64,000 nt of DNA from Nemertoderma westbladi (Eukaryota > Animalia > Xenacoelomorpha): NCBI GenBank assembly GCA_032718475.1, contig JAUCBJ010000896.1, positions 1 through 64,000 on the forward strand. The letters run 5' to 3'. A program made the translations under genes and the position numbers. Of the stretch, positions 2,634 through 34,751 are shown piece by piece. The notes under the pieces are model-generated. The model saw nothing but the letters and a program-made list of their open reading frames with translations. It made no database searches and was not told where the DNA came from. Position 1 is the stretch's first letter; each line of letters starts with the position of its first letter.

Positions 2634-2689
2634 CATGTGTCCCGCATGGGTTAGTGTAGCTGATGAGCCAAATCCCGGCGAAACACATG
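2634..2689 (+). ncRNA. Type III hammerhead ribozyme
   Basis: CATGT-GTC (cut after 2641)-CCGCAT GGGTTA GTGTAG-CTGATGA-GCC AAATCCC GGC-GAAA-CACATG. Intact core, stem III CATGTGT/ACACATG, stem II GCC/GGC, stem I with one C-A mismatch. Confidence 0.7.
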
Positions 2690-4656
2690 CAAAAATGTAA
2701 CCAATGTGATAATTTTACTTACAGTATTTAAACAGGGTTGCGCTTTGTGTCCCTGCTTAAATAAAACGATGGCTACTGTACTTACGGTTGAACAGATAGG
2801 AACATGTTGTTTCTCTGTTTCCAAATAATTTTACTTGCTTGATATTGGTCTGTCAAAAACATAATTCGTTCAACTCAAAATTATATTTAAGAGACCGGAT
2901 CATGCTGAACATGGTTGTATAAATTGCCTTCCTATTATTTTATTTTTATTATATATACACATATATAATATACACATATATAATATATATATAGTGGGAT
3001 GTTATAAACGTCTGCCACAACATTTAAAAAATGTCCATGGTTTCAGTATTCAAAACTTAGAATCGGCTGATTGAAATAAACGATACGCCTACTGACGGAC
3101 AAACCGACAGTAAAACGGACAGACAGCCATATCTCCAGAAGTAAGACAGACCTTGCTAAACGTATTTTGAATTTTGGAATCTTGATAAAATCTGCTCTAG
3201 ATGAAATATAAAAAATTTAATTAGCGCTAACCACCCCCCCCCCCCCCTCCCCCCCCCCCTAAGTAAAAACCGTAGCGGCAGGCATGCAAGGACCGATTGC
3301 AATGACAATCACTAGTCCATTGTTCAGGTTGTGTAATATAATAACATAGGCATGTTGTTATATTAATTATCATTCAGTTATTTGTACCCCCTGGAGCACA
3401 AAAAAAAACAAGTGGGACCGGTAGTGGAAATATGATAATGAACAATCACCACAAAATCAAATTGTATTTATGACCATGAGTTTTTGGGATGCTGATCACG
3501 AACATGGCACTGAAAAATGTCCTACCTTGTTGATAACGGCTTTTTTAGATACGTGTCAATGTGCGGCACGAAAAATACAAGTCGGACAAATTTGAAAAAA
3601 TTAAAAATCATTTCCAAATCAACATTATTATTACTTTGGATTTACGGAGATTCTGATCACGAATAAGACACTCAAAAATATTGTATTATCCAACCAAATT
3701 TGATTTTTCCCGTTTGAAATTTCAACTGGCTTGTTTTTTTCGTCCCACCAAACAAATACCAAAAATTACAGTTGCGTTACCACGAATGATTTTTAACGAG
3801 ATGAATCTGGTATGCAATTCAATGAAACCAAAACAAAATTTATTGTAATTAGTGGGAGTGAATCCGACAGGGTAGAGTTCCGTATTGATGGAATCGCGAT
3901 ATTAAACTGCGACAAATATATTTACCTAGGATCGTTGTTTACACAAGATGAAAAATCTCGACTGTATTGAAACTGCATTCTAAATTCTGTTAGCCGAATT
4001 CGAGTTCGGCTAACAAGTTTGCTATTTTTTGTTCTCGTAATACAACTATGCCTTTTTACTTAAAACTACAAGTTTTTGAAGCCGCTGTACTTATTGCCTC
4101 TATTTTATATGCGTCCGAAGGTTGCCTCTCAAATAATACACGTGTAATACTAAAGGTTTATAGTCGTATGGTTAGGTCATTGTTATCAGTGCGAGTTCAG
4201 ACACCTATAGATATTTGTCTAATCGAATCGGGTATTAAACCATTGAATTACGAGAAAGGCATTTCCTAAAGGAAATGCAACCACGAAGCTAAGGAAAATT
4301 AAACAAACGGCCACAATTTGGTTCGTTGCTTAGCCTAGTTTAGTAGCATTTGCCAATAAATAACTTCTATTCCCATGGAAACTAGAGTTCTCTGGAACTG
4401 TTGCTTTCACCTTTGAAAAAAAATTCAGTACAGATTGTGGTTCAGATAACACATATACTGAGTTTCAGAAAATATTGTAGTTTATGTCCAAATTACCGAT
4501 TTTCTATCAAAATGCATCTGTTTGCATTGGTTGTCATGGAAACTGAAAAATAGAACAATGTAATTCGGATGCAGAATAAGTCATATAGTGGGGGTAGGGG
4601 TTAGTTCCAAGTCATAATACGATTAACTTGTGCTTCAAGTTATCATTTTATAAATT

Positions 4657-5828
4657 TTAATTAAATAAATTGGAGATGAGCTGTTGCAACTGTAATTAAA
4701 GGTGTAATATTATGGGTTTGTTCAGAAGTGGAAAAAATTAGAGCGCGTCACCGGGGGTTGAACCAGCGCTATACGTACGTTTCGGCCTAACAGGCCTCAT
4801 CAGTAGCGCTAACCAGCTCAGCCACTAGCCCCTGACACTCACAGTCCCACCTAATCCACTTCTATTGAACGGGCAGTCTTAAATTGCATATATTCTATCT
4901 CTAACAGTGGACCTACCGGCCTCAAGTATGCTAGAGTGAAACAGGAGGGAAGTACAAATAAATAAATATTCAGCTCGAGTATTGCTGCCAGGTGATATTA
5001 ATTAAATAAATTGGAGATGAGCTGTTGCAACTGTAATTAAAGGTGTAATATTATGGGTTTGTTCAGAAGTGGAAAAATGAGAAAGCGCGTCATCGGGGGT
5101 TGAACCAGCGTTATACGCACGTTTCGGCCTAACAGGCCTCATCAGTAGCGCTAACCAGCTCAGCCACTAGCCCCTGACACTCACAGTCCCACCTAATCCA
5201 CTTCTATTGAACGGGCAGTCTTAAGTTGCATAAATTCTATCTCTAACAGTGGACCTACCGGCCTCAAGTATGCTAGAGTGAAACAGGAGGGAAGTACAAA
5301 TAAATAAATATTCAGCTCGAGTATTGCTGACAGGTGATATTAATTAAATAAATTGGAGATGAGCTGTTGCAACTGTAATTAAGGGTGTAATATTATGGGT
5401 TTGTTCAGAAGTGGAAAAAATGAGAGCGCGTCACCGGGGGTTGAACCAGCGCTATACGTACGTTTCGGCCTAACAGGCCTCATCAGTAGCGCTAACCAGC
5501 TCAGCCACTAGCCCCTGACACTCACAGTCCCACCTAATCCACTTCTATTGAACGGGCAGTCTTAAGTTGCATAAATTATATCTCTAACAGTGGACCTACC
5601 GGCCTCAAGTATGCTAGAGTGAAACAGGAGGGAAGTACAAATAAATAAATATTCAGCTCGAGTATTGCTGCCAGGTGATATTAATTAAATAAATTGGAGA
5701 TGAGCTGTTGCAACTGTAATTAAGGGTGTAATATTATGGGTTTGTTCAGAAGTGGAAAAAATGAGAGCGCGTCACGGGGGTTGAACCAGCGCTATACGTA
5801 CGTTTCAGCCTAAAAGGCCTCATCAGTA
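4657..5828 (-). repeat. Tandem array (~3.5 x 340-342 bp) of hammerhead-ribozyme repeats (retrozyme/Sm-alpha-like), replacing the middle of a Helitron copy
   Basis: Near-identical units; hammerheads start at 4765, 5107, 5448 and 5788 (last truncated). Confidence 0.9.
4765..4810 (-). ncRNA. Type I hammerhead ribozyme (exemplar; further copies 5107-5152, 5448-5493, 8982-9027, 9324-9369, 9665-9710)
   Basis: Minus strand AGCGCTA-CTGATGA-GGCC TGTTA GGCC-GAAA-CGTAC-GTA-TAGCGCT: canonical core, short palindromic stem III (ACGTACGT), GUA cleavage triplet. Confidence 0.9.
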
Positions 5829-8800
5829 AGTGATGCAGAATAAGTTATATAGTGGGGGTAGGGATTGGTCCCAAGTCATAACACCTTGCCCGTAGGCCTC
5901 AAATTAACATTTTATAAATTTTAACATCTGTTTATCCCGGTTGCCAAGGTAACTGGATTTTATATTTAGCCTCAATCGGATCTGCTATGGACCTTATAGT
6001 TGTGTTGCAAAACCCCAAGTTTATATCTATTATAGTTTTCCTACAAATAGAGTTATAAATATTGACTTGAAATACATAGACTTTTTTTGAAGTCCGTTGC
6101 CATGGAAACCAGATTTTTCCTGGATATGAGACCCGGCCCAAAAGATGCGCCTCGCCGAGTAGTATATACATGCAAAATTTCAGGGTACTTTTAAAGGCTA
6201 GTTTTTTCCGGAATCAAAAAAAAACAAATCTGCCCCATACAAGTAAAATAGCCCACTATGAATACACCATCTCAGCTAAGGAAAATCTTTCTTAGCGAAA
6301 GTAGTTGATTTTCCTTAACAAGAAAGGCATTTCCTAAAGGAAATGCAACCACGAAGCTAAGGAAAATTAAACAAACCGCCACAATTAGTTTGTTGCTTAG
6401 CCTAGTTTAGTAGCATTTGACAATAATTAACTTCTATTCCCATGGAAACTAGAGTTCTGTGGAACTGTTGTTTTAACCTTTGAAAAAAGATTCAGTACAG
6501 ATTGTGGTTCAGATAACACATATACAAAGTTTCAGAAAATATTGTAGTTTATGTCCAAATTACCGATTTTCTATCAAAATGCATCTGTTTGTAGTGGTTG
6601 TCATGGAAACTGAAAAATAGAACAATGTAATTCGGATGCAGAATAAGTCATATAGTGGGGGTAGGTGTTGGTCCCAAGTCTTAATAGTATTAACTTGTGC
6701 TTCAAATTATCATTTTATAAATTTTAACATCTGTTTAGTCTTGTTGCTATGGTGACTGGAATTTCTAATTAACCTCGAACGGCTTGGATATGAACCTTAT
6801 AGTTGAGTTGAGAAACCCCAAGTTTATATCTATTGCGGTTTTTCTACAAATAGAGTTATGAATATAGACTTGAATGATATAATCTGTAATAAACTCCAGT
6901 TACCACGGTAACTAGATATTTCTGGAATGATTTGAGTTTCACTAAAAGTTCCAACTAGTGGTCCAGATAACACATACCCAGTTTTGTAAAATTTTATCGT
7001 GAAGTCTATGTCCAAATGAATAAGTTTTGAATAAAAACATCTGTTTTCAGCGGTTGTCATGGTAACTGAAAAATAGAACAATGTAATTCGGATGCAGAAT
7101 AAGTTATATAGTGGGGGTAGGGGTTGGCCCCAAGTCATAACACCTTGCCCTTAGGCCTCAAATTAACATTTTATAAATTTTAACATCTGTTTATCCCGGT
7201 TGCCAAGGTAACTGGATTTTCTATTTAGCTTCAATCGGATCTGCTATGGACCTTATAGTTGTGTTGCGAAACCCCAAGTTTATATCTATTATAGTTTTCC
7301 TACAAATAGAGTTATAAATATTGACTTGAAATACATAGACTTTTTTTGAAGTCCGTTGCCATGGAAACCAGATTTTTCCTGCATATGAGACCCGGCCCAA
7401 AAGATGCGCCTCGTCGAGTAGTATATACATGCAAAATTTCAGGGTACTTTTAAAGGCTAGTTTTTTCACCGGTCAAAAAAAACCAAATCTGCCTCACACA
7501 AGTAAAATAGCCCACTATGAATAGACCATCTCAGCTAAGGAAAATCTTTCTTAGCGAAAGTAGTTGATTTTCCTTAGCTTCGTGGACTTCGTGGATCGTA
7601 TTACTGTAGCACGGAAGAAATTTATATCGAAGATGCTTAAAAACCATGATAGTGAACTTCCCTTTTGTAAAGTACTAGAAAGGCATTTCCTAAAGGAAAT
7701 GCAACCACGAAGCTAAGGAAAATTAAACAAACGGCCACAATTTGGTTCGTTGCTTAGCCTAGTTTAGTAGCATTTGCCAATAAATAACTTCTATTCCCAT
7801 GGAAACTAGAGTTCTCTGGAACTGTTGGTTTTACCTTTGAAAAAAGATTCAGTCCAGATTGTTTTTCAGATAACACATCGAGTTTCAGAAAATATTGTAG
7901 TTTATGTCCAAATTACAGATTTTCTATCAAAATGCATCTGTTTGCAGTGGTTGTCATGGAAACTGAAAAATAGAACAATGTAATTCGGATGCAGAATAAG
8001 TCATATAGTGGGGGTAGGTGTTGGTCCCAAGTCATAATACTATTAAATTGTGCTTCAAATTATCATTTTATTAATTTTAACATCTGTTTACTCTTGTTGC
8101 TATGGTAAATGGATTTTCTAATTAACTTCGAACGGCTTGTATATGGACCTTATAGATGAGTTACAAAACCCCAAGTTTATATATATTACAGTTTTGCTAG
8201 AAATAGAGTTATCAATATAGACTTGAATGATATAGAGTTTAATAAACTACAGTTACCATGGTAACTAAATTTCTGGAATGATTTAAGTTTCACTAAAAGT
8301 TCCAACTAGTGGTGCAGATAACACATACCCAGTTTTGTAAAATTTTATCGCGAAGTCTATGTCCAAATGAATAATTTTTGTATAAAAACATCTGTTTTCG
8401 GCTGTTGTCATGGTAACTGAAAAATAGAACAATGTAATTCGGATGCAGAATAAGTTATATAGTGGGGGTAGGGGTTGGTCTCAAGTCATAACACCTTGCC
8501 CTTAGGCCTCAAATTATCATTTTATAAATTTTAACATCTGTTTATCCCGGTTGCCAACGTAACTGGATTTTCTATTTAGCCTCAATCGGATCTGCTATGG
8601 ACCTTATAGTTGTGTTGCAAAACCCCAAGTTTAAATCTATTATAGTTTTCCTACAAATAGAGTTATAAATATTGACTTGAAATACATAGACTTTTTTTGA
8701 AGTCCGTTGCCATGGAAACCAGATTTTTCCTGGATATGAGACCCGGCCCAAAAGATGCGCCTCGCCGAGTAGTATATACATGCAAAATTTCAGGGTACTT

Positions 8801-8904
8801 TTAAAGGCTAGTTTTTTCGCCTATCAAAAAACCCCAAATCTGCCTCACACAAGTAAAATAGCCCACTATGAATAGACCATCTCAGCTAAGGAAACTGTAA
8901 TTGT

Positions 8905-10045
8905 AACTGTAATTAAAGGTGTAATATTATGGGTTTGTTCAGAAGTGGAAAAAATTAGAGCGCGTCACCGGGGGTTGAACCAGCGCTATACGTACGTTTC
9001 GGCCTAACAGGCCTCATCAGTAGCGCTAACCAGCTCAGCCACTAGCCCCTGACACTCACAGTCCCACCTAATCCACTTCTATTGAACGGGCAGTCTTAAA
9101 TTGCATATATTCTATCTCTAACAGTGGACCTACCGGCCTCAAGTATGCTAGAGTGAAACAGGAGGGAAGTACAAATAAATAAATATTCAGCTCGAGTATT
9201 GCTGACAGGTGATATTAATTAAATAAATTGGAGATGAGCTGTTGCAACTGTAATTAAAGGTGTAATATTATGGGTTTGTTCAGAAGTGGAAAAATGAGAA
9301 AGCGCGTCATCGGGGGTTGAACCAGCGTTATACGCACGTTTCGGCCTAACAGGCCTCATCAGTAGCGCTAACCAGCTCAGCCACTAGCCCCTGACACTCA
9401 CAGTCCCACCTAATCCACTTCTATTGAACGGGCAGTCTTAAGTTGCATAAATTCTATCTCTAACAGTGGACCTACCGGCCTCAAGTATGCTAGAGTGAAA
9501 CAGGAGGGAAGTACAAATAAATAAATATTCAGCTCGAGTATTGCTGACAGGTGATATTAATTAAATAAATTGGAGATGAGCTGTTGCAACTGTAATTAAG
9601 GGTGTAATATTATGGGTTTGTTCAGAAGTGGAAAAAATGAGAGCGCGTCACCGGGGGTTGAACCAGCGCTATACGTACGTTTCGGCCTAACAGGCCTCAT
9701 CAGTAGCGCTAACCAGCTCAGCCACTAGCCCCTGACACTCACAGTCCCACCTAATCCACTTCTATTGAACGGGCAGTCTTAAGTTGCATAAATTATATCT
9801 CTAACAGTGGACCTACCGGCCTCAAGTATGCTAGAGTGAAACAGGAGGGAAGTACAAATAAATAAATATTCAGCTCGAGTATTGCTGACAGGTGATATTA
9901 ATTAAATAAATTGGAGATGAGCTGTTGCAACTGTAATTAAGGGTGTAATATTATGGGTTTGTTCAGAAGTGGAAAAAATGAGAGCGCGTCACGGGGGTTG
10001 AACCAGCGCTATACGTACGTTTCAGCCTAAAAGGCCTCATCAGTA
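8905..10045 (-). repeat. Second hammerhead-repeat array (duplicate)
   Basis: Copy of 4688-5828. Confidence 0.9.
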
Positions 10046-13000
10046 AGTGATGCAGAATAAGTTATATAGTGGGGGTAGGGATTGGTCCCAAGTCATAACA
10101 CCTTGCCCGTAGGCCTCAAATTAACATTTTATAAATTTTAACATCTGTTTATCCCGGTTGCCAAGGTAACTGGATTTTATATTTAGCCTCAATCGGATCT
10201 GCTATGGACCTTATAGTTGTGTTGCAAAACCCCAAGTTTATATCTATTATAGTTTTCCTACAAATAGAGTTATAAATATTGACTTGAAATACATAGACTT
10301 TTTTTGAAGTCCGTTGCCATGGAAACCAGATTTTTCCTGGATATGAGACCCGGCCCAAAAGATGCGCCTCGCCGAGTAGTATATACATGCAAAATTTCAG
10401 GGTACTTTTAAAGGCTAGTTTTTTCCGGAATCAAAAAAAAACAAATCTGCCCCATACAAGTAAAATAGCCCACTATGAATACACCATCTCAGCTAAGGAA
10501 AATCTTTCTTAGCGAAAGTAGTTGATTTTCCTTAACAAGAAAGGCATTTCCTAAAGGAAATGCAACCACGAAGCTAAGGAAAATTAAACAAACCGCCACA
10601 ATTAGTTTGTTGCTTAGCCTAGTTTAGTAGCATTTGACAATAATTAACTTCTATTCCCATGGAAACTAGAGTTCTGTGGAACTGTTGTTTTAACCTTTGA
10701 AAAAAGATTCAGTACAGATTGTGGTTCAGATAACACATATACAAAGTTTCAGAAAATATTGTAGTTTATGTCCAAATTACCGATTTTCTATCAAAATGCA
10801 TCTGTTTGTAGTGGTTGTCATGGAAACTGAAAAATAGAACAATGTAATTCGGATGCAGAATAAGTCATATAGTGGGGGTAGGTGTTGGTCCCAAGTCTTA
10901 ATAGTATTAACTTGTGCTTCAAATTATCATTTTATAAATTTTAACATCTGTTTAGTCTTGTTGCTATGGTGACTGGAATTTCTAATTAACCTCGAACGGC
11001 TTGGATATGAACCTTATAGTTGAGTTGAGAAACCCCAAGTTTATATCTATTGCGGTTTTTCTACAAATAGAGTTATGAATATAGACTTGAATGATATAAT
11101 CTGTAATAAACTCCAGTTACCACGGTAACTAGATATTTCTGGAATGATTTGAGTTTCACTAAAAGTTCCAACTAGTGGTCCAGATAACACATACCCAGTT
11201 TTGTAAAATTTTATCGTGAAGTCTATGTCCAAATGAATAAGTTTTGAATAAAAACATCTGTTTTCAGCGGTTGTCATGGTAACTGAAAAATAGAACAATG
11301 TAATTCGGATGCAGAATAAGTTATATAGTGGGGGTAGGGGTTGGCCCCAAGTCATAACACCTTGCCCTTAGGCCTCAAATTAACATTTTATAAATTTTAA
11401 CATCTGTTTATCCCGGTTGCCAAGGTAACTGGATTTTCTATTTAGCTTCAATCGGATCTGCTATGGACCTTATAGTTGTGTTGCGAAACCCCAAGTTTAT
11501 ATCTATTATAGTTTTCCTACAAATAGAGTTATAAATATTGACTTGAAATACATAGACTTTTTTTGAAGTCCGTTGCCATGGAAACCAGATTTTTCCTGCA
11601 TATGAGACCCGGCCCAAAAGATGCGCCTCGTCGAGTAGTATATACATGCAAAATTTCAGGGTACTTTTAAAGGCTAGTTTTTTCACCGGTCAAAAAAAAC
11701 CAAATCTGCCTCACACAAGTAAAATAGCCCACTATGAATAGACCATCTCAGCTAAGGAAAATCTTTCTTAGCGAAAGTAGTTGATTTTCCTTAGCTTCGT
11801 GGACTTCGTGGATCGTATTACTGTAGCACGGAAGAAATTTATATCGAAGATGCTTAAAAACCATGATAGTGAACTTCCCTTTTGTAAAGTACTAGAAAGG
11901 CATTTCCTAAAGGAAATGCAACCACGAAGCTAAGGAAAATTAAACAAACGGCCACAATTTGGTTCGTTGCTTAGCCTAGTTTAGTAGCATTTGCCAATAA
12001 ATAACTTCTATTCCCATGGAAACTAGAGTTCTCTGGAACTGTTGGTTTTACCTTTGAAAAAAGATTCAGTCCAGATTGTTTTTCAGATAACACATCGAGT
12101 TTCAGAAAATATTGTAGTTTATGTCCAAATTACAGATTTTCTATCAAAATGCATCTGTTTGCAGTGGTTGTCATGGAAACTGAAAAATAGAACAATGTAA
12201 TTCGGATGCAGAATAAGTCATATAGTGGGGGTAGGTGTTGGTCCCAAGTCATAATACTATTAAATTGTGCTTCAAATTATCATTTTATTAATTTTAACAT
12301 CTGTTTACTCTTGTTGCTATGGTAAATGGATTTTCTAATTAACTTCGAACGGCTTGTATATGGACCTTATAGATGAGTTACAAAACCCCAAGTTTATATA
12401 TATTACAGTTTTGCTAGAAATAGAGTTATCAATATAGACTTGAATGATATAGAGTTTAATAAACTACAGTTACCATGGTAACTAAATTTCTGGAATGATT
12501 TAAGTTTCACTAAAAGTTCCAACTAGTGGTGCAGATAACACATACCCAGTTTTGTAAAATTTTATCGCGAAGTCTATGTCCAAATGAATAATTTTTGTAT
12601 AAAAACATCTGTTTTCGGCTGTTGTCATGGTAACTGAAAAATAGAACAATGTAATTCGGATGCAGAATAAGTTATATAGTGGGGGTAGGGGTTGGTCTCA
12701 AGTCATAACACCTTGCCCTTAGGCCTCAAATTATCATTTTATAAATTTTAACATCTGTTTATCCCGGTTGCCAACGTAACTGGATTTTCTATTTAGCCTC
12801 AATCGGATCTGCTATGGACCTTATAGTTGTGTTGCGAAACCCCAAGTTTAAATCTATTATAGTTTTCCTACAAATAGAGTTATAAATATTGACTTGAAAT
12901 ACATAGACTTTTTTTGAAGTCCGTTGCCATGGAAACCAGATTTTTCCTGGATATGAGACCCGGCCCAAAAGATGCGCCTCGCCGAGTAGTATATACATGC

Positions 13001-16000
13001 AAAATTTCAGGGTACTTTTAAAGGCTAGTTTTTTCGCCTATCAAAAAACCCCAAATCTGCCTCACACAAGTAAAATAGCCCACTATGAATAGACCATCTC
13101 AGCTAAGGAAAATCTTTCTTAGCGAAAGTAGTTGATTTTCCTTAGCTTCGTGGATTTGATCTATGTAAGAAAGAAAACTAACCCGGATCCAAATTACTGA
13201 TTGAGAGTCTAAATTCTGGAACTGACCCTTTCTGTGAGATTCATGATAGAATTCGTCGAAAACCAGCATCGTCGACAAAATTTCATACTTACCGGCAATT
13301 AATAAATATACAATTAAAACCACATGTACTGTAGTCCCAACGTAAAGTTTACATACCGGACTTTGTTAGGATATGGTTCATAAGAATACGCGTTATGTCA
13401 CACGACCTCCGAATTGAAAAGGGTAGATGGAGCAGAACCCCTACCACCGAGAACAGAGTGTGTCAGTGTGACAAGACGTCATTACAAACCGAGGACCATG
13501 TTCTGACCAATTGTACGAGAAAGGCATTTCCTAAAGGAAATGCAACCACGAAGCTAAGGAAAATTAAACAAACGGCCACACTTTGGTTCGTTGCTTGCTT
13601 AGCCTCGTTTAGTAGCAATTGTCAATAATTAACTTCTATTCCCATGGAAACTAGAGTTCGCTGGAACTGTTGCTTTAACCTTTGAAAAAAAATTCAGTAC
13701 AGATTGTGGTTCAGATAACACATGTACTGAGTTTTAGAAAATATTGTAGTTTATGTCCAAATTACCGATTTTCTATCAAAATGCATCTGTTTGTAGTGGT
13801 TGTCATGGAAACTGAAAAATAGAACAATGTAATTCGGATGCAGAATAAGTCATATAGTGGGGGTAGGTGTTGGTCCCAAGTCATAATACTATTAACTTGT
13901 GCTTCAAATTATCATTTTATAAATTTTAATATCTGTTTAGTCTTGTTGCTATGGTGACTGGAATTTCTAATTAACCTCGAACGGCTTGGATATGAACCTT
14001 ATAGTTGAGTTGAGAAACCCCAAGTTTATATCTATTGCGGTTTTTCTACAAATAGAGTTATGAATATAGACTTGAATGATATAATCTGTAATAAACTCCA
14101 GTTACCACGGTAACTAGATATTTCTGGAATGTTTTGAGTTTCACTAAAAGTTCCAACTAGTGGTCCAGATAACACATACCCAGTTTTGTAAAATTTTATC
14201 GTGAAGTCTATGTCCAAATGAATAAGTTTTGAATAAAAACATCTGTTTTCAGCGGTTGTCATGGTAACTGAAAAATAGAACAATGTAATTCGGATGCAGA
14301 ATAAGTTATATAGTGGGGGTAGGGGTTGGTCCCAAGTCATAACACCTTGCCCTTAGGCTTCAAATTAACATTTTATAAATTTTAACATCTGTTTATCCCG
14401 GTTGCCAAGGTAACTGGATTTTCTATTTAGCCTCAATCGGATCTGCTATGGACCTTATAGTTGTGTTGCGAAACCCCAAGTTTATATCTATTATAGTTTT
14501 CCTACAAATAGAGTTATAAATATTGACTTGAAATACATAGACTTTTTTTGAAGTCCGTTGCCATGGAAACCAGATTTTTCCTGGATATGAGACCCGGCCC
14601 AAAAGATGCGCCTCGTCGAGTAGTATATACATGCAAAATTTCAGGGTACTTTTAAAGGCTAGTTTTTTCGCCTATCAAAAAACCCCAAATCTGCCTCACA
14701 CAAGTAAAATAGCCCACTATGAATAGACCATCTCAGCTAAGGAAAATCTTTCTTAGCGAAAGTAGTTGATTTTCCTTAGCTTCGTGGATACTAGAAAGGA
14801 TTTCCTAAAGGAAATGCAACCACGAAGCTAAGGAAAATTAAACAAACGGCCACACTTTCGTTCATTGCTTAGCCTAGTTTATTAGTACTAGAAAGGCATT
14901 TCCTAAAGGAAATGCAACCACGAAGCTAAGGAAAATTAAACAAACGGCCACACTTTGGTTCGTTGCTTAGCCTCGTTTAGTAGCATTTGCCAATAATTAA
15001 CTTATATTCCCATGGAAACTAGAGTTCTCTGGAACTGTTGGTTTTACCTTTGAAAAAAGATTCAGTAAAGATTGTGGTTCAGACAACACATACCAAGTTT
15101 CAGAAAATATTGTAGTTTATGTCCAAATTACCGATTTTCTATTAAAATGCAACTGTTTGCAGTGGTTGTCATGGAAACTGAAAAATAGAACAATGTAATT
15201 CGGATGCAGTCATATAATGGGGGTAGGTCTTGGTCCCAAGTCATAATACTATTAACTTGTGCTTCAATAATTATAATTTTATAAATTTTAACATCTGTTT
15301 AGTCTTGTTACTATGGTAACTGGATTGTGTAATTAACGTGGAACGGCTTGTATATGGATGGACCTTATAGATGTGTTGCAAAACCCCAAATTTATATATA
15401 TTACATTATTTTGCTACAAATAGAGTATTGAATTTAGACTTGAATGATATAGACTTTAATAAACTCCAGTCACCATGGTAACTAGATATTTCTGGAATGT
15501 TTTCAGTTTCACCAAAAGTCCCAACTAGTGGTCCAGATAACACATACCCAGTTTCGTAAAATTTTATCGTGAAGTCTATGTCCAAATGAGTAATTTTTGC
15601 ATAAAAACATCTGTTTTCAGCGGTTGTCATGGTAACTGCAAAATAGAACAATCTAATTCGGACGCAGAATAATTTATATAGTGGGGGTAGGGGTTGGTCC
15701 CAAGTCATAACACCTTGCCCTTAGGCTTCAAATTAACATTTTATAAATTTTAACATCTGTTTAGCCTGGTTGCCAAGGTAACTGGATTTTCTATTTAGCT
15801 TCAATCGGCTCTGCTATGGACCTTATAGTTGTGTTGCGAAACCCCAAGTTTATATCTATTATAGTTTTCCTACAAATAGAGTTATAAATATTGACTTGAA
15901 ATACATAGACTTTTTTTGAAGTCCGTTGCCATGGAAACCAGATTTTTCCTGGATATGAGACCCGGCCCAAAAGATGCGCCTCGTCGAGTAGTATATACAT

Positions 16001-17780
16001 GCAAAATTTCAGGGTACTTTTAAAGGCTAGTTTTTTCACCTGTCAAAAAAAACCAAATCTGCCTCACACAAGTAAAATAGCCCACTATGAATAGACCATC
16101 TCAGCTAAGGAAAATCTTTCTTAGCGAAAGTAGTTGATTTTCCTTAGCTTCGTGGATAAACTTGGGGTTTCTCAACTCAACTATAAGGTCCGCAGCAGAG
16201 CCGATTGAGGTTGAATAGAAAATCCAGTTACCTTGGCAACCGGGCTAAACAGATGTTAAAATTTATAAAATGTTAATTTGAAGCCTAAGGTTAATGAGTT
16301 ATTACTTGGGACCAACCCCTACTAGAAAGGCATTTCCTAAAGGAAATGCAACCACGAAGCTAAGGAAAATTAAACAAACGGCCACACTTTCGTTCGTTGC
16401 TTATAGCCTAGTTTAGTAGCATTTGCCAATAATTTACTTCTATTCCCATGGAAACTAAAGTTCTCTGGAACTGTTGGTTTTACCTTTGAAAAAACATTCA
16501 GTCCAGATTGTGGTTCAGATAACACATACCAAGTTTCAGAAAATATTGTAGTTTATGTCCAAATTACCAATTTTCTATCAAAATGCATCTGTTTGCAGTG
16601 GTTGTCATGGAAACAGAAAAATAGAACAATGTAATTCGTATGCAGAATAAGTGATATAGTGGTAGTAGGTGTTGGTCCCAAGTCATAATACTATTAACTA
16701 GTGCTTCAAATTATCATTTTATAAATTTTAACATCTGTTTAGTCTTGTTACTATGGTAGCTGGATTTTCAAATTAACCTCGAACGGCTTGTATGTATATG
16801 GACCTTATAGATGAGTTGCAAAACCCCAAGTTTATATATATTACATTATTTTGCTACAAATAGAGTTATGAATATAGACTTGAATAATATAGACTTTAAT
16901 AAACTACAGTTACCATGGTAACTAGATATTTCTGGAATGTTTTGAGTTTTACTAAAAGTTCCAACTAGTGGTCCAGATAACACATACCCAGTTTTGTAAA
17001 ATTTTATCGCGAATTCTATGTCCAAATGAATAATTTTTGTATAAAAACATATGTTTTCTGCGGTTGTCATGGTAACTGAAAAATATAACAATGTAATTCG
17101 GATGCAGAATAAGTTATATAGTGGGGGTAGGGGTTGGTCCCAAGTCATAACAACTTGCCCTTAGGCTTCAAATTATCATTTTGTAAATTTTAACATCTGT
17201 TTAGCCCGGTTGCCAAGGTAACTGGATTTTCTATTTAGCCTCAATCGGATCTGCTATTGACCTTATAGTTGTGTTGCGAAACCCCAAGTTTATATCTATT
17301 ATAGTTTTCCTACAAATAGAGTTATAAATATTGACTTGAAATACATAGACTTTTTTTGAAGTCCGTTGCCATGGAAACCAGATTTTTCCTGGATATGAGA
17401 CCCGGCCCAAAAGATGCGCCTCGTCGAGTAGTATATACATGGAAAATTTCAGGGTACTTTTAAAGGCTAGTTTTTTCCCCGGTCAAAAAAACCAAATCTG
17501 CTCCATACAAGTAAAATAGCCCACTATGAATAGACCATCTCAGCTAAGGAAAATCTTTCTTAGCGAAAGTAGTTGATTTTCCTTAACTTCGTGGATTATC
17601 TGAACCTGTACGTGTTAAGTATGGCGCTGATATAAATGTTGGAACTTTAGAAAACATTCGGCTGTAATAATGATAAGTTACATACTTTATGTTGTTATAT
17701 TAGGGACGTATTACAGATATACCGCTAAAAATAGCTTTAGTTTATGTAGATTTAATTCACGTTTTCTCCTTCGTTGATTG

Positions 17781-20991: not shown

Positions 20992-22165
20992 TTTTTTTTT
21001 ATAATTTAATTTATTAATTCAAAAATATTGGTACAGTAAAAACAAGGTACAAAGTTTCACATATGCATAATAATGGTATTACGAAGATATTACGCACGAT
21101 TAATTAAGATTGCTGTAATAATATAAACTTTTAGAGTTCGCTCTACACGATATTAGATAGTACTGCGTCGCAGTACCGCTCGCCACAGAGTCTACAACAG
21201 CAACTACTAGAGGCTGCGTGAAAACGCCCTGTCGAGCAAATATGGTGATGGTATCCGTGCATTGCTAAACGTGAGAGAATTTGTCGAGACTTTTGGTTGG
21301 AGTTCGCCCAACTTCGATCAGAGTGGAGTCCTAAAGACCAAAATTCACTTTGGATGTCATCGAGTTTTTCATTAATATTACTGTGTGATATTAAACTCTG
21401 TTGTGAGTGGAAGATTTAACTTGTCCACCAACTCCAGTGCCAACGGAGGTTCCTGAGCCAATGCGTAGACTAGGCGATTTTTACTAAATTTTGAAACTGA
21501 TAGAGTCTTCTTCAGATAGACTGTTTTAATTTTATCTAAAGTTTCCATATCACTGGATTTCAGATGGGGCCATATTACTCGTAAACCACTTGTTATGACC
21601 GGTACAATCTTAATAGAAAATAAGCACATCGCTGTCGATACTGACAATAAGTGCGGATCGTGTATGGAATGGATTGATTTTAAACATTTACAAGTGACTG
21701 CAACACAATGTTTGGTAAACGATAAGGACGGTTGAAAAATCATTCCAAGATAATTGTAGTTATTTACTATTTTGACTAGTTTTCCATTTAAGTAAAATTT
21801 ATCGTTCAGACACAACTTCCCACCTCGTCGAAACTTCATAATAGCAGTTTTATCCAAATTAACTTCAATACCATATGCTTGTGTCCAATCCCAAAGGGCG
21901 TCTAATGCGGCTTGAATTTCTTCTCTAGTATGGCCGTAAAATAAAAGGTCATCAGCAAACAGCAATATTACAACTTTGCCTACTTTCCGTACTGCTTCTC
22001 TAACAAAACCAAAAATATCAGAAATAAAAATCACAAACAATAAAGGACTGAGCCATTCACCCTGTGCCAATCCCCGTATCTGGGCTAAAATCTTAGATAA
22101 CCGCAGTCCATCATAAATTCTAATAAAATTTGTTTACAAAATGGCTTTAATTATTCTGTAGAGGC
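20992..22165 (-). mobile_element. 5'-truncated LINE (RT C-terminal half, ORF 21378-22070) with poly(A) tail
   Basis: QGEWLSPLLF, LLFADD, VNLDKTAIM, YNYLG RT motifs; AATAAA and an A-run near 20992-21015 on the minus strand. Confidence 0.85.
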
Positions 22166-27243: not shown

Positions 27244-28708
27244 TTATTGCTTAGTAGATCGAGCCCTGCCTCGTCCTCGAAAACTGCGCACAGGTGACTT
27301 TGCTCGCGATATGGGACTCGTGGGGCGAGTCACTGGTTTTGTTTGGACGTTGGGAGACGGTGCGCCCGTTTCCTCACAAATTCGTCTATTTGGTATCCCG
27401 AAACCTCTACCGATTCCTCGTGACCGATCAGTTGTCACTACAGTTGGTAAAACGTCTGGGAACGCGCGGGAAGCGGACGACGCAGACCCAAGAGTAGCTT
27501 GCGCCCCCTTTTGATCAGCTGGTGTATGTCCCGATCCTCCTGTTGGTTCTCTAGGAAGCGATACCGTATCCCGAGTAATTCGAATAGTCGGCTCGACTCC
27601 CTTGCGTTCTTCTATATTAATAGACTTCTTTAATTGTTGGCTAACTTTCTGGACCCTTATGATCCTACCCTGCCCGTCCTCCCGAGGGTGACGTGCAGAC
27701 GGCGCAACCAGAGTGGCTGGTATATTTGTCGCCTCTAGGATCTCCTCTTCCTCGAATACGCTCGCTCGTATACGCCTATGATAGAACGCGGCTCGGTACG
27801 CCCATGCGACGTTTAACCAAGCTCCTTTATTCCGCTTTTCAGTTCGGAAACGATCAAATTCACCATACGTGATACGATTTACGACTTTCTGAAAATTCCA
27901 CGTGTTCTTTTTGTCCGGGTGAATCTGTAATAGATACTCGCGCACCACTCGGAATCCACTGTCGTGAGGCAAGATGTCGACTACCTCGATAAGTTCGTCA
28001 TATTGGGGCATAGCGGAGATGTATCCTTCCGACATCATCGTTTGGGGATTTACCGCCCAAAATCCAAGATGCGCCCTCATCGGAAATCGTCTTCTTTGTG
28101 CCGATACATGTTCATCGGCTAAATCTTCCCACTCATCGAACAGTTTTCTCACGAGTTTTACAGATTCGTGTTCATAAGGTATGTCTCTTAGTTGGCATTC
28201 AGATGCTCGATGCCCTTTTATATTGCATTAAGTACATTGAGCCATAAATCTCCAGCAAGTATAAAAGGTATGAGACCCTTGATCTCCACACCATCCACAG
28301 ATTAGTTGAGTCGTAGTAATGTGCTTTCCACTGCACTTTGTCATATGATGTCCAGCGACGCCACATTTACAACACATCGTATTGGCAGGGTACCACACTC
28401 GTTCATATATAAGATCTCCAATTGGTCGAGCGCTTCCTCCCACACTATAATCATAATCATCTGGATCTATGGGTTGGTAGGTTTCTGAAGGTTGTATACA
28501 AACTACAGCATCTGTTGCTTCAAGTTGTCGAATCTCCGTCTGAGATTTCTTCGGGAGGTTCCTTTCAATCTCAAGAAGTTCCTCTAAAGGATCGTCAGTG
28601 ATCGTAGTCGTTACTTCGAAATCATCACCAAGGTGACCGATAGGCGCGCGCGTCTGCCGTGATTCATCCATAACCTCCACGATACGTTCTCCTTCATAGG
28701 GTAACAAT
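27244..28708 (-). pseudogene. Accessory ORF, 3' part: triple CCHC zinc knuckle, conserved helical domain and basic tail; nonsense codon at 28228-28230
   Basis: CCKCGVAGHHMTKC, CGWCGDQGSHTFYTC, CT*CNIKGHRASEC; the duplicate copy has TAT (Tyr) at the stop position. Confidence 0.85.
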
Positions 28709-29642
28709 GTAAATGTTAGGGTTATGATTGATGGTGTTATGCGGGACTGATATACTGTATGTATATAGGTAGGAGGATTCCAAAGAGATACCGGTTACTA
28801 CCTAGGTCAGTACGGCAGGAGGTAGAGATAGATAGATTCAGTACAGCAGTACATTGTATTCGTCCGTCCTGCTTTACTTTATGCCGTCATACCATCAGTA
28901 TGGGACTGCAGGTTTATAGGAATATATAGATATATATGATCATCACTTATCTTTATTATATCTTCACGTTTACCTTGGGAACTAACAAATGGCGCTGCGA
29001 GTTGAAAGAAACCTATGGGCCTTGATACTGACTAACTGGACTACAGACCAGGGCCACGCATTGCTGCTTTGATTAGGCCTATTGATTTGATACTACATCA
29101 GCAGGACGGTAATTGCAACTACAGAACTACTGACCAAATTGCTACATCAGTACAGACCGGTACGGATCAACCGTACTGAGGTCACTGCTACAGCTTTTAC
29201 ATACGTACCGTCTCACCGTCGGTTGCTACCGCCACAACCAGACAACGATTACCGTTGCTTTCAAAACTTCTACCTACCATTCCAACCAGCCTAGACCGTA
29301 CATTCCTGCATTCGTTTTTTCTTACACCGGTATTACAAACCGGGCTGGCAGGAGGGAAATAGGCCAACCCTGCTACTCTAAGCCTACAGTCTGACAGTAA
29401 CTACAAACATTTCTACCAGTAAATTGCTATTGCAGTATTGTAACCCGTCTTTAAAAATATTCCAGTTATACTTGTTGACTGGAAGGAAAGAACCTGTATT
29501 CTTTGGCCATTCTGCCATTCGTTCATTTGTTCTACAATATGCAATACACCGGTACTCATTACTGATATACCTGTATACAGAGCAATACTTGTCAGACTAC
29601 TGGTAGGCCTAGATCTGCCAAATAAACATTTCTATACATACA

Positions 29643-32600
29643 ATGGCAGCGGCAGCCCCTGTATATACAAGGCTGTTTAAACCTTTCAAACAAACAGACA
29701 AATGGAGTGTCTATAAAACCATGATTTTGACAATTATAAATTCTGTTAGAATACCAGATAACAGTAACCCCGAAGAAGAAAAAAGGAAAATTTTAATTTC
29801 AAATTGTGGAACTGACCTCCTTGAAATAATAATAGATATTATTTACCCAGTAGACGTCAATGATGCTACATTTACAGTCATTATAGATGCTCTCAATGAT
29901 TATTTTCAATCATCCATAAACAAAGAGGCTGAAGTACGCAAATTTATTAGATTGCAGCAATTGCCTGCAGAATCTGTAACTGATTTTGTTAAACGTCTAC
30001 GCTCTGGGTCACGCTACTGTGAATTTGGAACAAGCCTGGACAGCAGGCTGAAAGAACAATTGCTTGCAGGCATAGCGAATGAATCTATAGCTACAGAATT
30101 GATGCGGTCAAAACCTACAGATTTTGCTACCGCGATTCAAGTTGCACGAAATTATGAAGAGGCATGCAATTTTGCAAAACGAGATATAGACGGGTTAACG
30201 GTACAAATGTCTAAACTAAACCCAAACTATGGGGCTTCTGAGCCGCATAATTATAAAAGTAGTAGTTTTTCACACATTCAATGCTTACGTTGTAATAAAA
30301 AAGGGCATAAATCTAACAGATGCAATGTGTCAGCAAGTATAACATGTCACTTTTGTGGAAATGCGGGCCATTTAGAAGTTGCGTGTTTGAAGAAAAGGGC
30401 CACATACACAAATTCAGGCAGTTTTAAACAGCAACGACCTGATAGACAGTTAAATACAAGTTCTAATAAAACTTGTAAATCATTTAGTAAAGCCCATGCA
30501 GTTGATGTTACAGATACAGGTGAAAGTACAGATGAAGAAGATATGTTTGAACAAATGAAAAGTTTTACTATAAAAGCAGAAATTGAAACCAATCAACTTA
30601 ATAAGGTAGATCCAATGACTACAATCATAACTGTAAATAACTCAAAGCCAATAATTTTTGAGCTTGACACAGGTGCACGTCATTCGGCCATTACATATTC
30701 AACATTAGAAAAGTATATACCAGAATTTAAGTTGGAAGAGAGTGATGCAACACTACGTGGTTACTGTGATGGTACAAAAAAGGTTCTAGGTCTTTGCCAT
30801 GTCACAGTACATATACCCAAATTGAACAAGACAGTTAATAATCTACCATTACTAGTGATCAATGGAAAAGTGAATACACCACTTTTTGGAAAACATTGGG
30901 TGGATACGTTTGGAGAAGGAGTGGATAAGCTAGTAGAAACTGCTCCGTTCATAGTGAAGTCCTTAGTACCCAGGAGTGCCTTAGAAACTATTCTTGAAAA
31001 TAATAGAAATGTATTTGATGGATTAGGATGTTACAATGGTACGCCAGCTAATGTTAGTTTGAAAGTGAATGCCCAGCCCAAGTTTTTAAAGTGTAGAACT
31101 GTCCCCCACGCATTTTGCGAGAAAGTGGAGTTGATATTACAGTCAGATATTGACAAGGGCAGCCTTCGTAAACCACTACCAAATGAAAACATTGAATGGG
31201 CTACCCCACTTGTTGTCGCAAAAAAACCTGGTTTAGATGACAAAATACGAGTCTGTGGGGATTATAAAAGTACATTAAATCCACATATCATAGATGATCC
31301 ATTTCCCTTACCTACATTTGATGAAATTGCAGCAAAACTGGAGGGTGGAGAAGAGTTTACAGTGATTGACCTAAGAGAAGCCTACCATCAGCTTCCTCTA
31401 GATCAGCATTCCCAACTACTTACGACTTTAAATACTCCACTTGGACTCTTAATACCAACTCGTGTTCCTTACGGGATAAAAACCGCAAGCACTAAGTGTT
31501 TAAAAGTTGTTGATGAGGTACTTCAAGAAGTCGACTGTAAAGAATCTGTTGCTGCTTACATGGATGAAATAATAATAACAGGTACAAATCGTCAGGATCA
31601 TTTAGAGAGACTTTGCAAAGTTCTCAAACAATTACAACAACGAAACATAACGTTACGGAGAGAAAAGTGTGCATTTTTACAGGATGAAGTCAAATTCTGC
31701 GGCCATGTCATTTCGAAACATGGAATTGCTCCTGATAAGGACAAAATTGAAGCAGTAGTGAAATTGCAGGAACCTTCAACTACCAAAGAGCTTCAGTCAG
31801 CTTTAGGATGTCAAAGTCGATTTTAACAATGTGATTTCTCAGAAGGATGGAACGACTTTGCATGGCTGCGATTACGCAATAAAGGGGGTCATGCTGTCAT
31901 GGGCGTTGTAACTTGAATTCGAGAAAACTATCTCGCTCACAAACGGATAAATGGTGTCTATAATTGAGGTCAATGAACTTGCTACCTAGGCCTATCTAAC
32001 GTGGGAGGTTATTATGATATCAAGCTTTAATTAGGTTATACCCAAGAGGTTTATAAATAACTCCAAAAACTCACCGGATTGATAATAATCGGCCCCCAAC
32101 CTAGGAGCTGTCTCCAGTAATAATTATTGTGGTTCAATAATATCGGCAATAGGTCTATAGCAATAAGCACCAACATTAACAACCAAACTGTAGGTCAACA
32201 TTACAGCATTAGAAATCTTGGAATATTGAAATATATCCGAAAATAAGGCGAGATAACAGTTTGTAGGGGTTTGGACCCGACAAACGCTGTGTTTCAGAAT
32301 TTCAAATGCCCCAATAATCCATCCTTGAGCTGTTCACGGTACAGACGGTACACGGTACCGCTATCACAAGTAAAGGTTGACTGACACGGTCAGACGGGCA
32401 ATTGAAAGTGATGACTGCAGACTGACACGGTCAGATGTACAAAGTATGTATAAAGTAATGAATACAGACTGACACGGTCAGACTGTACAAAGTATGTATA
32501 AAGTAATGAATACAGACTGACACAGTCAGACTGTAATTAATGATAATAAAAACACAGCGCCAATTTGCCTGTGGACCAACATCGGCAAACCGCCGTTGAC

Positions 32601-34751
32601 ATAGGATTCTTCAACTATTTGAGAAAGTTCATCCCGAATTATGCAGAAATGGCCCAACCCCTTTACAAAATGTTAGAGAAAGGAAATAAGTTTTTGTGGA
32701 CCAAAGTTGAAAGTAAGGCTTTTACCGACCTGAAACGGGCCATCACAAAATATACAATGCTTTGTTTTTTTGATACAAGAAAGGAAACACATCTAATTAC
32801 AGATGCTTCAGAACAGACAATATCTGCAATATTGTTACAGAAGAATACTGAAGGAAATCTATGCCCTATCGAATTCATGTCTGCTTCCCTATCACAATGT
32901 CAGAAGCGCTATTCACAACTTGATCGTGAGGCTCTTGCTATCATTAGTGGAATCCGGAAATTCCGAAATTATTTAATAGGTAGAAAATTCCATTTCATTA
33001 CCGACAACGAGCCTCTCCGACATATATTATCACCTTCAAAGGCATTGCCAGCTCTAGCAGTTTCTCGGCTTCAGCACTGGGCAATGGAGTTGTCATCCTA
33101 TGAATTCAGTATGTCATACATAAAGTCACAATTGAACCCATCCGATTGTTTTACTCGAATTTCGCAACCAGGTAACATTGTAGATGATGATATTGATATC
33201 AAATGCTTTGATATTCAAGAAGAGCAAAACATTCGAGAGATACCATTAAATCGAGATGGTTTAAAAGCAGCCACTGCTAATGATAACGTTTTAAAATTAA
33301 TACTACAGCATTTAAATTGTCCAAATTCCGGAATTGCAAAGGATAAAGCTCTTCATGATTACAAACCTTTAATGATTGAACTATCCAGTAATGATGGAAT
33401 TTTATGCAGAGGAACAGCAACAATAATCTCAATATCACTTCAGAAGAAAGTTCTCCAAGAGCTCCATGGACCACATACTTGCGCACGACGAATGAAAGAA
33501 ACTGCTCGTAATGTAGTTTGGTGGTTGGGAATCTCAAAAGATATAGAACTATATGTGAAAAGTTGTGAAAGTTGCCAGAGATGTGCGAAAGAGGTACATG
33601 TCACAACATGTCCAATGCCAGAACCAATAGAACCTTTTGAAAGAATACATCTTGACTTTGCAGAATACGAATCGACAATCTTCTTAGGAATAGAATGTGC
33701 CAAGACAAAATGGTCTCGAGTTATTGTTCCCAACAAAGCAACAGCAGCTATAGTCATCACTGAACTTCGGAAATTTTTCGCCGATTTCTCTATCCCTAAA
33801 ATTATCGTTGCAGATAATGGTCCCCAATTCCGAGCCGAAGAATTGGATGCTTTTTGCATTGCAAATGGCATTAACCGATGGCCCTCACCACCATATAAAC
33901 CGTCTTGTAATGGTGCAGCTGAGAGACTAGTGCAATCATTCAAATCGTCATTAAAGAAACAAGAAGATGATAATGAAAAATTATCTATGGCAGATCGTAT
34001 AAGTAGATTCATGTTGTTTGACCATAATGCAATAAAATCAAATGGGAAAACCCCCGCCGAGTTAGTGTTAGCGTACAAGCCAAAGACCCGATTAGATAGA
34101 CTGATCAACTTCCCAGCAAAGATCAAGGACCCAAAAAATAGTCCTTACGTTATTGGTGAAGCTGTATGGATACGTAATTATTCACGATTATCTGGGCACT
34201 ATGAGCGTTGGTTGCCTGGTAAAGTGGTTCAATACATCGGAAATAGAATTATCACGGTTGAAGTGTGCGGTGTCATTGTCCGTCGCCACATTGACCAAAT
34301 GAGACGCCGTTATAGTCCATTTGTAGGAACTTCACGCAGTATAGCGCCCCCCGAGATAACTAGTTCGCAACCCCTACCACCATATTACCATAGGTTAATA
34401 AATATTCCGGAAACAACTCCGGTCCATATTCAACGACGTTCTGAGAAGACACTTACCCAGATTCCACTGGAATGCACCTTCGAACCAACACAAGAACGGG
34501 TCGAGAGCTTTGTAACGCCCTGCAACAACCCACCATCACCTCATATTCAACGACGTTCTGAGAAGACACTTACCCAGATTCCACTGGAATGCACCTTCGA
34601 ACCAACACAAGAACGGGTCGAGAGCTTTGTAACGCCCTGCAACAACCCACCATCACCTACGGTACACAACCAGGGTGAACAACTCTCCAATGAACATCTA
34701 GCGAGATACCCACGACGGGCTCATAAGAAACCAAACTATTATGGATATTAA
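29643..34751 (+). CDS. Gypsy gag-pol polyprotein (1436 aa once the solo LTR and one TSD are removed)
   Basis: Two CCHC knuckles, protease FELDTGA, RT (IRVCGDYK, YMDE), RNase H (ITDAS, YSQLDREAL), integrase (HLDF, VADNGPQF, NGAAERLV); SALG/FFNY rejoins in frame. Confidence 0.92.
31809..32601. mobile_element. Solo LTR (793 bp) of an unrelated family inserted in Gypsy pol
   Basis: TGTCAA...TTGACA termini; TSD TAGGA at 31804-31808 and 32602-32606. Confidence 0.85.
34425..34658 (+). repeat. 117-bp in-frame tandem duplication in the Gypsy integrase tail
   Basis: HIQRRSEKTL...CNNPPSP occurs twice. Confidence 0.95.

What the first reader, a model, noticed from the sequence alone, without database searches (positions are those of the whole stretch)
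4730..4842. Hammerhead ribozyme built into a tRNA-like Pol III gene
Seen (minus strand): GGGGCTAG-TGGCTGAGCTGG (A box)-TT-[type I hammerhead]-GGTTCAACCCC (B box)-CGGTGACGCGCTCT-AA-TTTTTT. The ribozyme occupies the place of the anticodon/variable arm, and GAGTGTCA/TGACGCGCTC could close the RNA. Established: tandem hammerhead repeats of a few hundred bp (non-LTR retrozymes, schistosome Sm-alpha with A/B boxes) occur in animals, and short palindromic stem III favours dimeric cleavage. Inference: each unit makes a ~110-nt self-cleaving Pol III RNA, with readthrough giving ~341-nt monomers or circles.
Basis: partly seen in the sequence, partly recalled or inferred. Interest (0 to 1): 0.7.

Follow-up and report, generated by a model that had tools for sequence, protein, structure and literature searches.

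The report
Ribozyme splitting a tRNA-type promoter
A 341-base tandem repeat, probably from an animal, has a hammerhead self-cutting RNA motif sitting between the two halves of a tRNA-type promoter with a stop signal just behind, so it likely makes its own short RNA and, by read-through, the unit-length RNAs that would let it jump; blood flukes have a similar element, but with the ribozyme behind the promoter.

Summary
The sequence is as described. On the minus strand each 341-bp unit has an A box (4824-4813), a complete type I hammerhead (4810-4765), an exact B box (4764-4754) and T6 (4737-4732). The strict B box occurs 8 times in the window, always in these units. Both boxes landed there in 1 of 20,000 shuffles. 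In two runs the four common variants inside these 71 bases all keep pairing or consensus. Stem III is a palindrome predicted to form only in a dimer.

It is a non-LTR retrozyme of the schistosome Sm-alpha kind. What differs: in an Sm-alpha copy both boxes precede the ribozyme and I saw no T4 run. Here the cut falls between the boxes, so promoter and ribozyme exist only across a unit junction, and a terminator follows.

Corrections: no cloverleaf forms, the closing stem is weak, the short RNA would be about 105 nt, and the second array is a duplicate. Transcription, cleavage and circles are untested; no RNA holder was listed. This scan noted promoter-bearing retrozymes on other DNA, but none described with this nested order. 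Verdict: new variant of a known kind.

The parts
4657..5831 (-). Tandem array of 341-bp units: three complete cut-to-cut monomers (340, 341, 342 nt), a 5' stub and a 3' partial unit, inserted in another repeat
4813..4824 (-). A box, 12-nt form; one base longer than the published 11-nt consensus
4765..4810 (-). Type I hammerhead: stem I 4810-4804 with 4771-4765 (7 bp), core CUGAUGA 4803-4797, stem II 4796-4784 (5 bp, 3-nt loop), GAAA 4783-4780
   Evidence: sequence; stem I and II pairing probabilities 0.6-1.0
4773..4780 (-). 8-nt palindrome forming stem III: 2 bp within one RNA (probability under 0.02), 8 bp between two RNAs
4771..4772 (-). Predicted cleavage site, after GUA; lies between box A and box B
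   Evidence: position from hammerhead anatomy; cleavage not tested
4754..4764 (-). B box, exact match to GGTTCRAnYCY; 48 nt after the 12-nt A box
4732..4737 (-). T6 run, candidate Pol III terminator; the only run of 4 or more T in a unit on this strand
4732..4836 (-). Predicted short Pol III transcript, about 105 nt; would be cut into about 65 + 39 nt
   Evidence: inferred from box position
5074..5166 (-). Second unit: boxes intact, but a C-A mismatch in stem I, G-U pairs in the palindrome and T5; probably weakened
5415..5507 (-). Third unit: A box, hammerhead, B box, T6, all intact
5777..5831 (-). 5'-truncated stub: starts 2 nt before the core after 3 extra bases, has no A box, keeps the B box
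4657..4660 (.). 3' junction: 4-nt TTAA overlap with the AT-rich host repeat; no target-site duplication
8901..10045 (-). Second array; part of a 4,211-bp duplication (4684-8894 = 8901-13111, 4 differences), not an independent insertion

Best explanation
This is a non-coding 341-bp tandem repeat of the hammerhead 'retrozyme' kind whose ribozyme lies between a tRNA-type A box and B box and ahead of a T6 run, and it likely uses these as its own RNA polymerase III promoter and leaky terminator. Inferred steps: (1) Pol III starts near 4835 and often stops at T6, giving an RNA of about 105 nt with one hammerhead. (2) That hammerhead is predicted to cut only when two copies pair through the 8-nt palindrome. 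(3) Read-through of T6 crosses 236 nt free of T4 runs and reaches the next unit, giving a two-ribozyme RNA of about 447 nt from which one 341-nt monomer would be cut and could be ligated to a circle. (4) A Penelope-type reverse transcriptase probably copies circles or multimers into new AT-rich sites. Shown from the sequence: the cut site separates box A from box B, so a cut monomer begins with box B and ends with box A, and promoter and ribozyme are both whole only across a unit junction.
For: Anatomy and non-random placement of the boxes; B box exact and A box one base long against the published consensus; spacing 48 nt, above human tRNAs (32-43) and below 7SL (52). Dimer fold gives the double hammerhead with 8-bp stem III, 11 kcal/mol below two monomers for the 105-nt RNA; monomer stem III under 0.02. 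In runs X1 and X3, 4 sites within 4824-4754 vary at 3% or more and 4 of 4 keep pairing or consensus; 57 of 213 possible changes are neutral, chance about 0.015 for this mix. At the CpG 4784-4783 the change that leaves a G-U pair reaches 27% and 32%, while the change that would hit the core G is not listed. Six of six shown loose-end rows that reach the terminator keep a run of 6-7 T although the linker differs (20 rows shown, 260 not). Purified human Pol III terminated only 52-65% on T4-T9 (PMC13385618 passages). Junctions fit a retro-copy: 5' truncation with 3 extra bases, 4-nt overlap at an AT-rich site, no duplication; all three full units share a letter that under 2% of X1 depth has (4908/5250/5591), as expected from one template. 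Unit size, GC 44% and no long ORF match retrozymes.
Against: No transcription, cleavage or circle is shown. The selection signal is mostly on the ribozyme: only 1 of the 4 neutral variants lies in a box, and no variant in an 11-nt B box is what a young family would give anyway. A minor subfamily has lost the final GG of box A (loose ends at 4812: 7 and 10 records in X1 and X3). In the two-unit transcripts the two palindromes pair in at most 1.3% of the computed ensemble (both transcripts include the weakened unit, and the program cannot draw pseudoknots). Lack of further T4 runs is not significant (3,682 of 20,000 shuffles have 0 or 1). A T6 just behind box B should cut the yield of unit-length RNA. 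Only 1 of 9 Xenopus retrozyme dimers cut in vitro, so motif presence does not guarantee activity. No Penelope-type gene was found in the 14 ORFs scanned. Units differ by 1.5-3%, and about 363 bp of host repeat are missing at the site, which DNA recombination could also give.
Confidence: 0.6

Rival explanations
1. An ordinary retrozyme that is read passively by host read-through (Pol II or other). The A box, B box and T run are leftovers of a captured tRNA or SINE head, kept because the family is young and because they abut ribozyme stem I.
For: Reviews state that metazoan retrozymes seem to lack promoters and rely on read-through (PMC7761336 passage). Box conservation cannot be told from family youth. 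A minor subfamily has an altered A box. T6 would hinder multimer synthesis by Pol III.
Against: The B box is exact, the A box one base long, the spacing usable and the T run in the tRNA-gene position, while the rest of the tRNA (acceptor stem, half the D and T pairs) has decayed; the T run survives in diverged subfamilies.
Confidence: 0.22
2. A short Pol III hammerhead gene of about 105 nt that is spread at the DNA level (unequal exchange, conversion, satellite turnover); the 341-nt RNA and circles play no part.
For: Discrete promoter-terminator unit; no target-site duplication and a host deletion at the site; the array lies in a repeat-rich region that has itself just duplicated; units are not identical.
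Against: 5' truncation with extra bases and a short AT-rich overlap at the 3' end; short arrays of 3-4 units are typical of retrozymes (75% of families at most 7 units); contigs run off the element into unlike flanks (table 8).
Confidence: 0.1
3. The unit is the terminal repeat of an autonomous Penelope-like element, amplified locally.
For: Penelope terminal repeats carry type I hammerheads with a short palindromic stem III and a promoter; 24 of 57 Xenopus retrozyme families matched known elements, nearly all Penelope-like, at their ends.
Against: No coding sequence adjoins either end; both flanks are the host repeat. A T6 would be a poor start for a multi-kb coding transcript made by Pol III (inference).
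Confidence: 0.08

Closest known systems
Sm-alpha / Sj-alpha SINE-like hammerhead elements of Schistosoma (PMC6765202 and PMC2770079 passages; W36.2_W001 in the supplement of PMC8490949; the 1998 and 2000 primary papers were not held)
   Same: Unit of about 335-341 bp, tRNA-type A and B boxes, type I hammerhead, tandem copies, Pol III as the presumed source of multimers.
   Different: In the 335-bp Sm-alpha copy, read by eye, box A and box B both precede the hammerhead core, and I saw no run of four T. The review places the promoter at the 3' end of the cut monomer. Here the ribozyme and its cut lie between the boxes, a T6 follows 17 nt after box B, and stem III is a 2-bp palindromic type. No match to Rfam Hammerhead_1 was listed.
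Metazoan non-LTR retrozymes (PMC7229834, parts 2 and 4 of 6 and passages; bioRxiv 10.64898/2026.07.22.740005, parts 1-3 of 5)
   Same: Tandem units of 150-450 bp, one type I hammerhead each, GC under 50%, non-coding, no LTR features; meets the preprint's definition of two or more consecutive units with complete motifs.
   Different: Described as apparently promoter-less. Linear and circular RNAs are shown for coral, mussel and axolotl, not here.
Dimer-acting hammerheads of Penelope-like elements and amphibian satellites (passages)
   Same: Very short palindromic stem III that needs a second copy.
   Different: Newt satellite transcripts appear to be made by Pol II; no tRNA-type boxes are reported for these in what I read.
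tRNA-derived SINEs (type 2 Pol III promoter; PMC10137851 passages)
   Same: Internal A and B boxes, T-run terminator.
   Different: No A-rich tail or target duplication, tandem and circularly permuted copies, ribozyme inside the promoter.

Membership tests
Type I hammerhead ribozyme | Core CUGANGA, GAAA and NUH with three stems, ends in stem I | tested here: met
   stem III only 2 bp in a monomer
Type I hammerhead ribozyme | Rfam model at gathering score | tested here: not met
   none at gathering; Hammerhead_3 19 bits of 48.5
Type I hammerhead ribozyme | Self-cleavage | not testable with these tools
   needs in vitro assay
Non-LTR retrozyme | Two or more consecutive 150-450-bp units with complete type I motif | tested here: met
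   341 bp, 3 full motifs plus a stub
Non-LTR retrozyme | Non-coding, GC under 50% | tested here: met
   longest ATG frame 46 codons, GC 44%
Non-LTR retrozyme | Multi-copy, dispersed family | tested here: inconclusive
   1,413 and 716 contigs laid in X1 and X3, some running into unlike flanks; depth is not a copy number and no genome was held
Non-LTR retrozyme | Linear and circular unit-length RNA | not testable with these tools
   no RNA holder listed
Non-LTR retrozyme | Mobilised by a Penelope-like element | tested here: inconclusive
   junction shape fits; no such gene among 14 ORFs scanned
Sm-alpha family | tRNA-type A and B boxes in the unit | tested here: met
Sm-alpha family | Promoter wholly upstream of the hammerhead | tested here: not met
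   hammerhead lies between the boxes
Sm-alpha family | Sequence homology to Sm-alpha | not tested
   no alignment was run; compared by eye only
tRNA gene | Cloverleaf with acceptor and anticodon arms | tested here: not met
   0 genes by ARAGORN, no Rfam tRNA hit; folds give a long hairpin
Type 2 Pol III gene | Box A, box B at usable spacing, T-run terminator | tested here: met
   B exact; A with one extra base; 48-nt spacing; T6
Type 2 Pol III gene | Transcription by Pol III | not testable with these tools
   needs ChIP, inhibitor or extract transcription

The most novel reading that the evidence does not exclude
A self-gating retroelement: the ribozyme was built into a tRNA gene so that each cut splits the promoter, only junction-bearing (circle- or multimer-derived) copies can fire, and the abundant 105-nt Pol III RNA serves as the trans-acting partner that switches on cleavage of the rarer read-through precursors through the palindromic stem III. 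An unrelated hammerhead followed by a B-box hairpin in fungal-looking contigs (L123, L126, L129, L133) hints that ribozyme-in-tRNA designs arose more than once.
Probability: 0.2. Interest if true: 0.72.

Novelty: new variant of a known kind. Interest (0 to 1): 0.47.

Why it matters
How animal retrozymes are transcribed is open: a review says they seem to have no promoter. This unit names a polymerase, a start (about 4835), a stop (T6) and fragment sizes (about 105, 65, 39, 341 and 447 nt), so the question can be tested with a 100-bp construct. It would also be a compact natural case of one stretch serving as DNA promoter and RNA catalyst, and a design for making circular RNA from a Pol III cassette. 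The idea of a Pol III-driven hammerhead repeat is not new (Sm-alpha), which caps the surprise.

Tried and rejected
No genome is held for this window, so copies could not be aligned directly. No RNA holder was listed. Run X4 (RNA only guessed, other organism label) holds one 371-nt contig at depth 5.5 that loops with period 341, but the run also holds the flanking repeat; not used. Rfam: nothing at gathering; weak wrong-type hit. ARAGORN at a lowered threshold gave 95 calls on 1.2 kb, uninformative. A tRNA-like D-arm plus T-arm fold scored -16.1 against -14.7 kcal/mol for the bare monomer hammerhead, both far above the -32.2 minimum of nearly the same stretch, so I do not claim a switch. The closing stem is not supported as a conserved feature. 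T4 depletion is not significant. Tighter patterns gave 0 in viral contigs and 13 in metagenome contigs, none of this family: 4 type III hammerheads followed by a hairpin (L122, L125, L128, L131), 4 copies of one fungal-looking element, L121 of uncertain type, and 4 that look like chance. Earlier findings by sequence and by relatives: none. The host was not identified; the Atlas look-up of a Gypsy protein says only eukaryote; BEL/Pao and Gypsy elements suggest an animal (range recalled). The primary Sm-alpha paper and three other look-ups were not held, and the supplement of PMC7229834 could not be read; published retrozyme sequences there may already show this order.

Full report
Observation. 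From 5' to 3': A box 4824-4813, two T, hammerhead 4810-4765, B box 4764-4754, a short linker, T6 4737-4732. The hammerhead has a 7-bp stem I, the core CUGAUGA, a 5-bp stem II, GAAA, an 8-nt palindrome and GUA, with the cut predicted after 4772. The block repeats every 341 bp, 3.4 copies at 97%, with cut-to-cut lengths 340, 341 and 342. A second array at 8901-10045 lies in a 4,211-bp duplication with 4 differences, so it is the same insertion twice.

More than chance. The strict B-box pattern matches 8 times on both strands of the window, each time in one of the 8 hammerhead units. The strict A pattern (12-nt form, recalled) matches 12 times, 6 in the units; the two 5' stubs lack it. With the ribozyme fixed and the other 295 bases shuffled 20,000 times, loose A and loose B boxes both fell in place once. 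Against a published consensus (PMC10137851, passages) box B is exact and box A has one extra base. The 48-nt spacing is longer than in human tRNA genes (32-34 or 41-43) and shorter than in 7SL (52). That paper puts box A 11 bp from the start, which gives a start near 4835 and about 105 nt to the end of T6.

It is not a tRNA. ARAGORN and Rfam call none. By tRNA numbering (recalled) the acceptor strands no longer pair in register, and ribozyme stem I uses the 3' D-stem strand and the 5' T-stem strand. What survives is what a type 2 promoter needs in DNA.

Ribozyme. Stems I and II form with probability 0.6-1.0; the 2-bp stem III of a monomer with under 0.02. Two 105-nt RNAs co-fold into the double hammerhead with free cores and an 8-bp stem III, 11 kcal/mol below two monomers. 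Short palindromic stems III that act as dimers are known from Penelope-like elements and amphibian repeats (PMC6765202 and PMC7761336, passages). Against: in two-unit transcripts the palindromes paired in at most 1.3% of the ensemble; both tested transcripts include the weakened unit and pseudoknots are not modelled. Rfam scores the motif at only 19 bits under the type III model.

Other copies. No genome was held, so I laid contigs of four public runs on the unit: 1,413, 716, 1 and 53 contigs on 4715-4885. In X1 and X3, four sites inside 4824-4754 vary at 3% or more: 4817 (the R of box A), 4790 (loop II), 4784 (G-C to G-U) and 4776 (A-U to G-U in the dimer helix). All 4 are neutral, where 57 of 213 possible changes would be; chance about 0.015. 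At the CpG 4784-4783 only the harmless change is listed. Six sites vary in the 26 bases just upstream, but none is listed in 4851-4882, so variant density alone does not single out the motif. X5 has five further low-level variants on 1-3 contigs, two in the core, plus a 4-nt insertion and an 8-nt deletion on one contig each. No B-box variant is listed in any run, which a young family could give by itself. Six of six shown loose-end rows that reach the terminator keep 6-7 T (20 rows shown, 260 not). One minor subfamily has lost the last GG of box A. So selection on the ribozyme is supported; selection on the promoter is suggested, not shown.

Insertion site. The array sits in a larger repeat. 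At the RNA 3' end it overlaps the host by TTAA in an AT-rich stretch; at the 5' end it stops 2 nt before the core and carries 3 extra bases; about 363 bp of host are missing and there is no target duplication. All three full units share a letter found in under 2% of X1 depth, pointing to one template, though they differ by 1.5-3%. This fits reverse transcription of a circle or multimer by a Penelope-type enzyme, the favoured model for retrozymes (PMC7229834 parts 2 and 4 of 6; bioRxiv 10.64898/2026.07.22.740005 parts 1-3 of 5). No such enzyme was found in the 14 of 19 long ORFs scanned, which gave Gypsy-type, BEL/Pao and one other reverse transcriptase.

Mechanism. Shown: the order of parts, and that the cut lies between the boxes. 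Inferred: Pol III makes a 105-nt RNA that cuts only as a dimer; leak through T6 gives a two-ribozyme RNA of about 447 nt and from it a 341-nt monomer, which an RtcB-type ligase could close as in other retrozymes. Leak is plausible: purified human Pol III terminated 52-65% on T4-T9 (PMC13385618, passages). A cut monomer starts with box B and ends with box A, so a single linear copy would have neither promoter nor ribozyme; both return only across a junction. I put this whole reading at 0.6, and the retrozyme identity alone at about 0.9.

Comparison. The nearest known element is schistosome Sm-alpha, described as a promoter followed by a hammerhead and apparently read by Pol III (PMC2770079 passages). 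In the 335-bp copy printed in the supplement of PMC8490949 (read by eye; main-text passages) box B comes before the hammerhead core and I saw no T4 run. So this element works like Sm-alpha but fails the family's order of parts. It meets the sequence definition of a non-LTR retrozyme, a group said to lack evident promoters. Eight literature searches (listings, with passages of the papers named here and of PMC10886601 and PMC6309819) showed no hammerhead nested between A and B boxes. The library lacks the primary Sm-alpha and Sj-alpha papers, and one key supplement was unreadable, so this is not proof of absence. Earlier notes of this scan describe retrozymes behind a tRNA-like promoter or with U6-like boxes on other DNA; they are unchecked leads.

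Side result. The metagenome scan returned 13 stretches, none of this family. Four (L123, L126, L129, L133) share about 120 bases at contig starts: a type III hammerhead (27.6 bits) whose stem I loop resembles a D loop, followed by a B-box hairpin, then different flanks, one of which looks like a fungal WD40 gene by eye. The B box was selected by the pattern, so this is only a hint of a parallel design.

Verdict. Real, non-random, a new variant of a known kind. Interest 0.47.

Noticed in passing
window 4684-8894 and 8901-13111: A 4,211-bp tandem duplication with only 4 differences, starting inside the hammerhead array; very recent or an assembly artefact.
   Followed up: partly
window 4246-17600: Host tandem repeat of about 1,350 bp built of two 76-80% alike sub-units, with one inverted piece at 16156-16322; very deep in the runs.
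   Followed up: no
window 2646-2705 (+): A lone hammerhead-like core (CTGATGA, 3-bp stem II, GAAAC) with an imperfect stem I and no clean cleavage triplet; probably decayed.
   Followed up: partly
window 26336-26264, 48761-48689, 51890-51818 (-): Three near-identical tRNA-like heads with an A box and a loose B box, no ribozyme, not called by ARAGORN.
   Followed up: partly
L123:1-125, L126, L129, L133: Shared repeat end with a type III hammerhead, D-loop-like stem I loop and B-box hairpin, ending near CACA, in different fungal-looking flanks; possibly a fungal LTR retrozyme.
   Followed up: partly
L122:875-929 and 1495-1549; L125, L128, L131: Type III hammerheads (up to 39.9 bits) followed by a hairpin with a T-loop-like loop; L122 has two about 620 bases apart.
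   Followed up: no
window 4767-4812, runs X3 and X5: A joint that goes back 46 bases with 19 other letters between, i.e. two hammerheads about 65 nt apart with box B removed; one contig in each run.
   Followed up: no
window 21378-61681: Nested retrotransposon remains: Gypsy-type (29613-34751), BEL/Pao (38037-42539), a reverse transcriptase fragment (21378-22133) and a duplicated ORF with no Pfam match (27244-28227, 49669-50925).
   Followed up: partly
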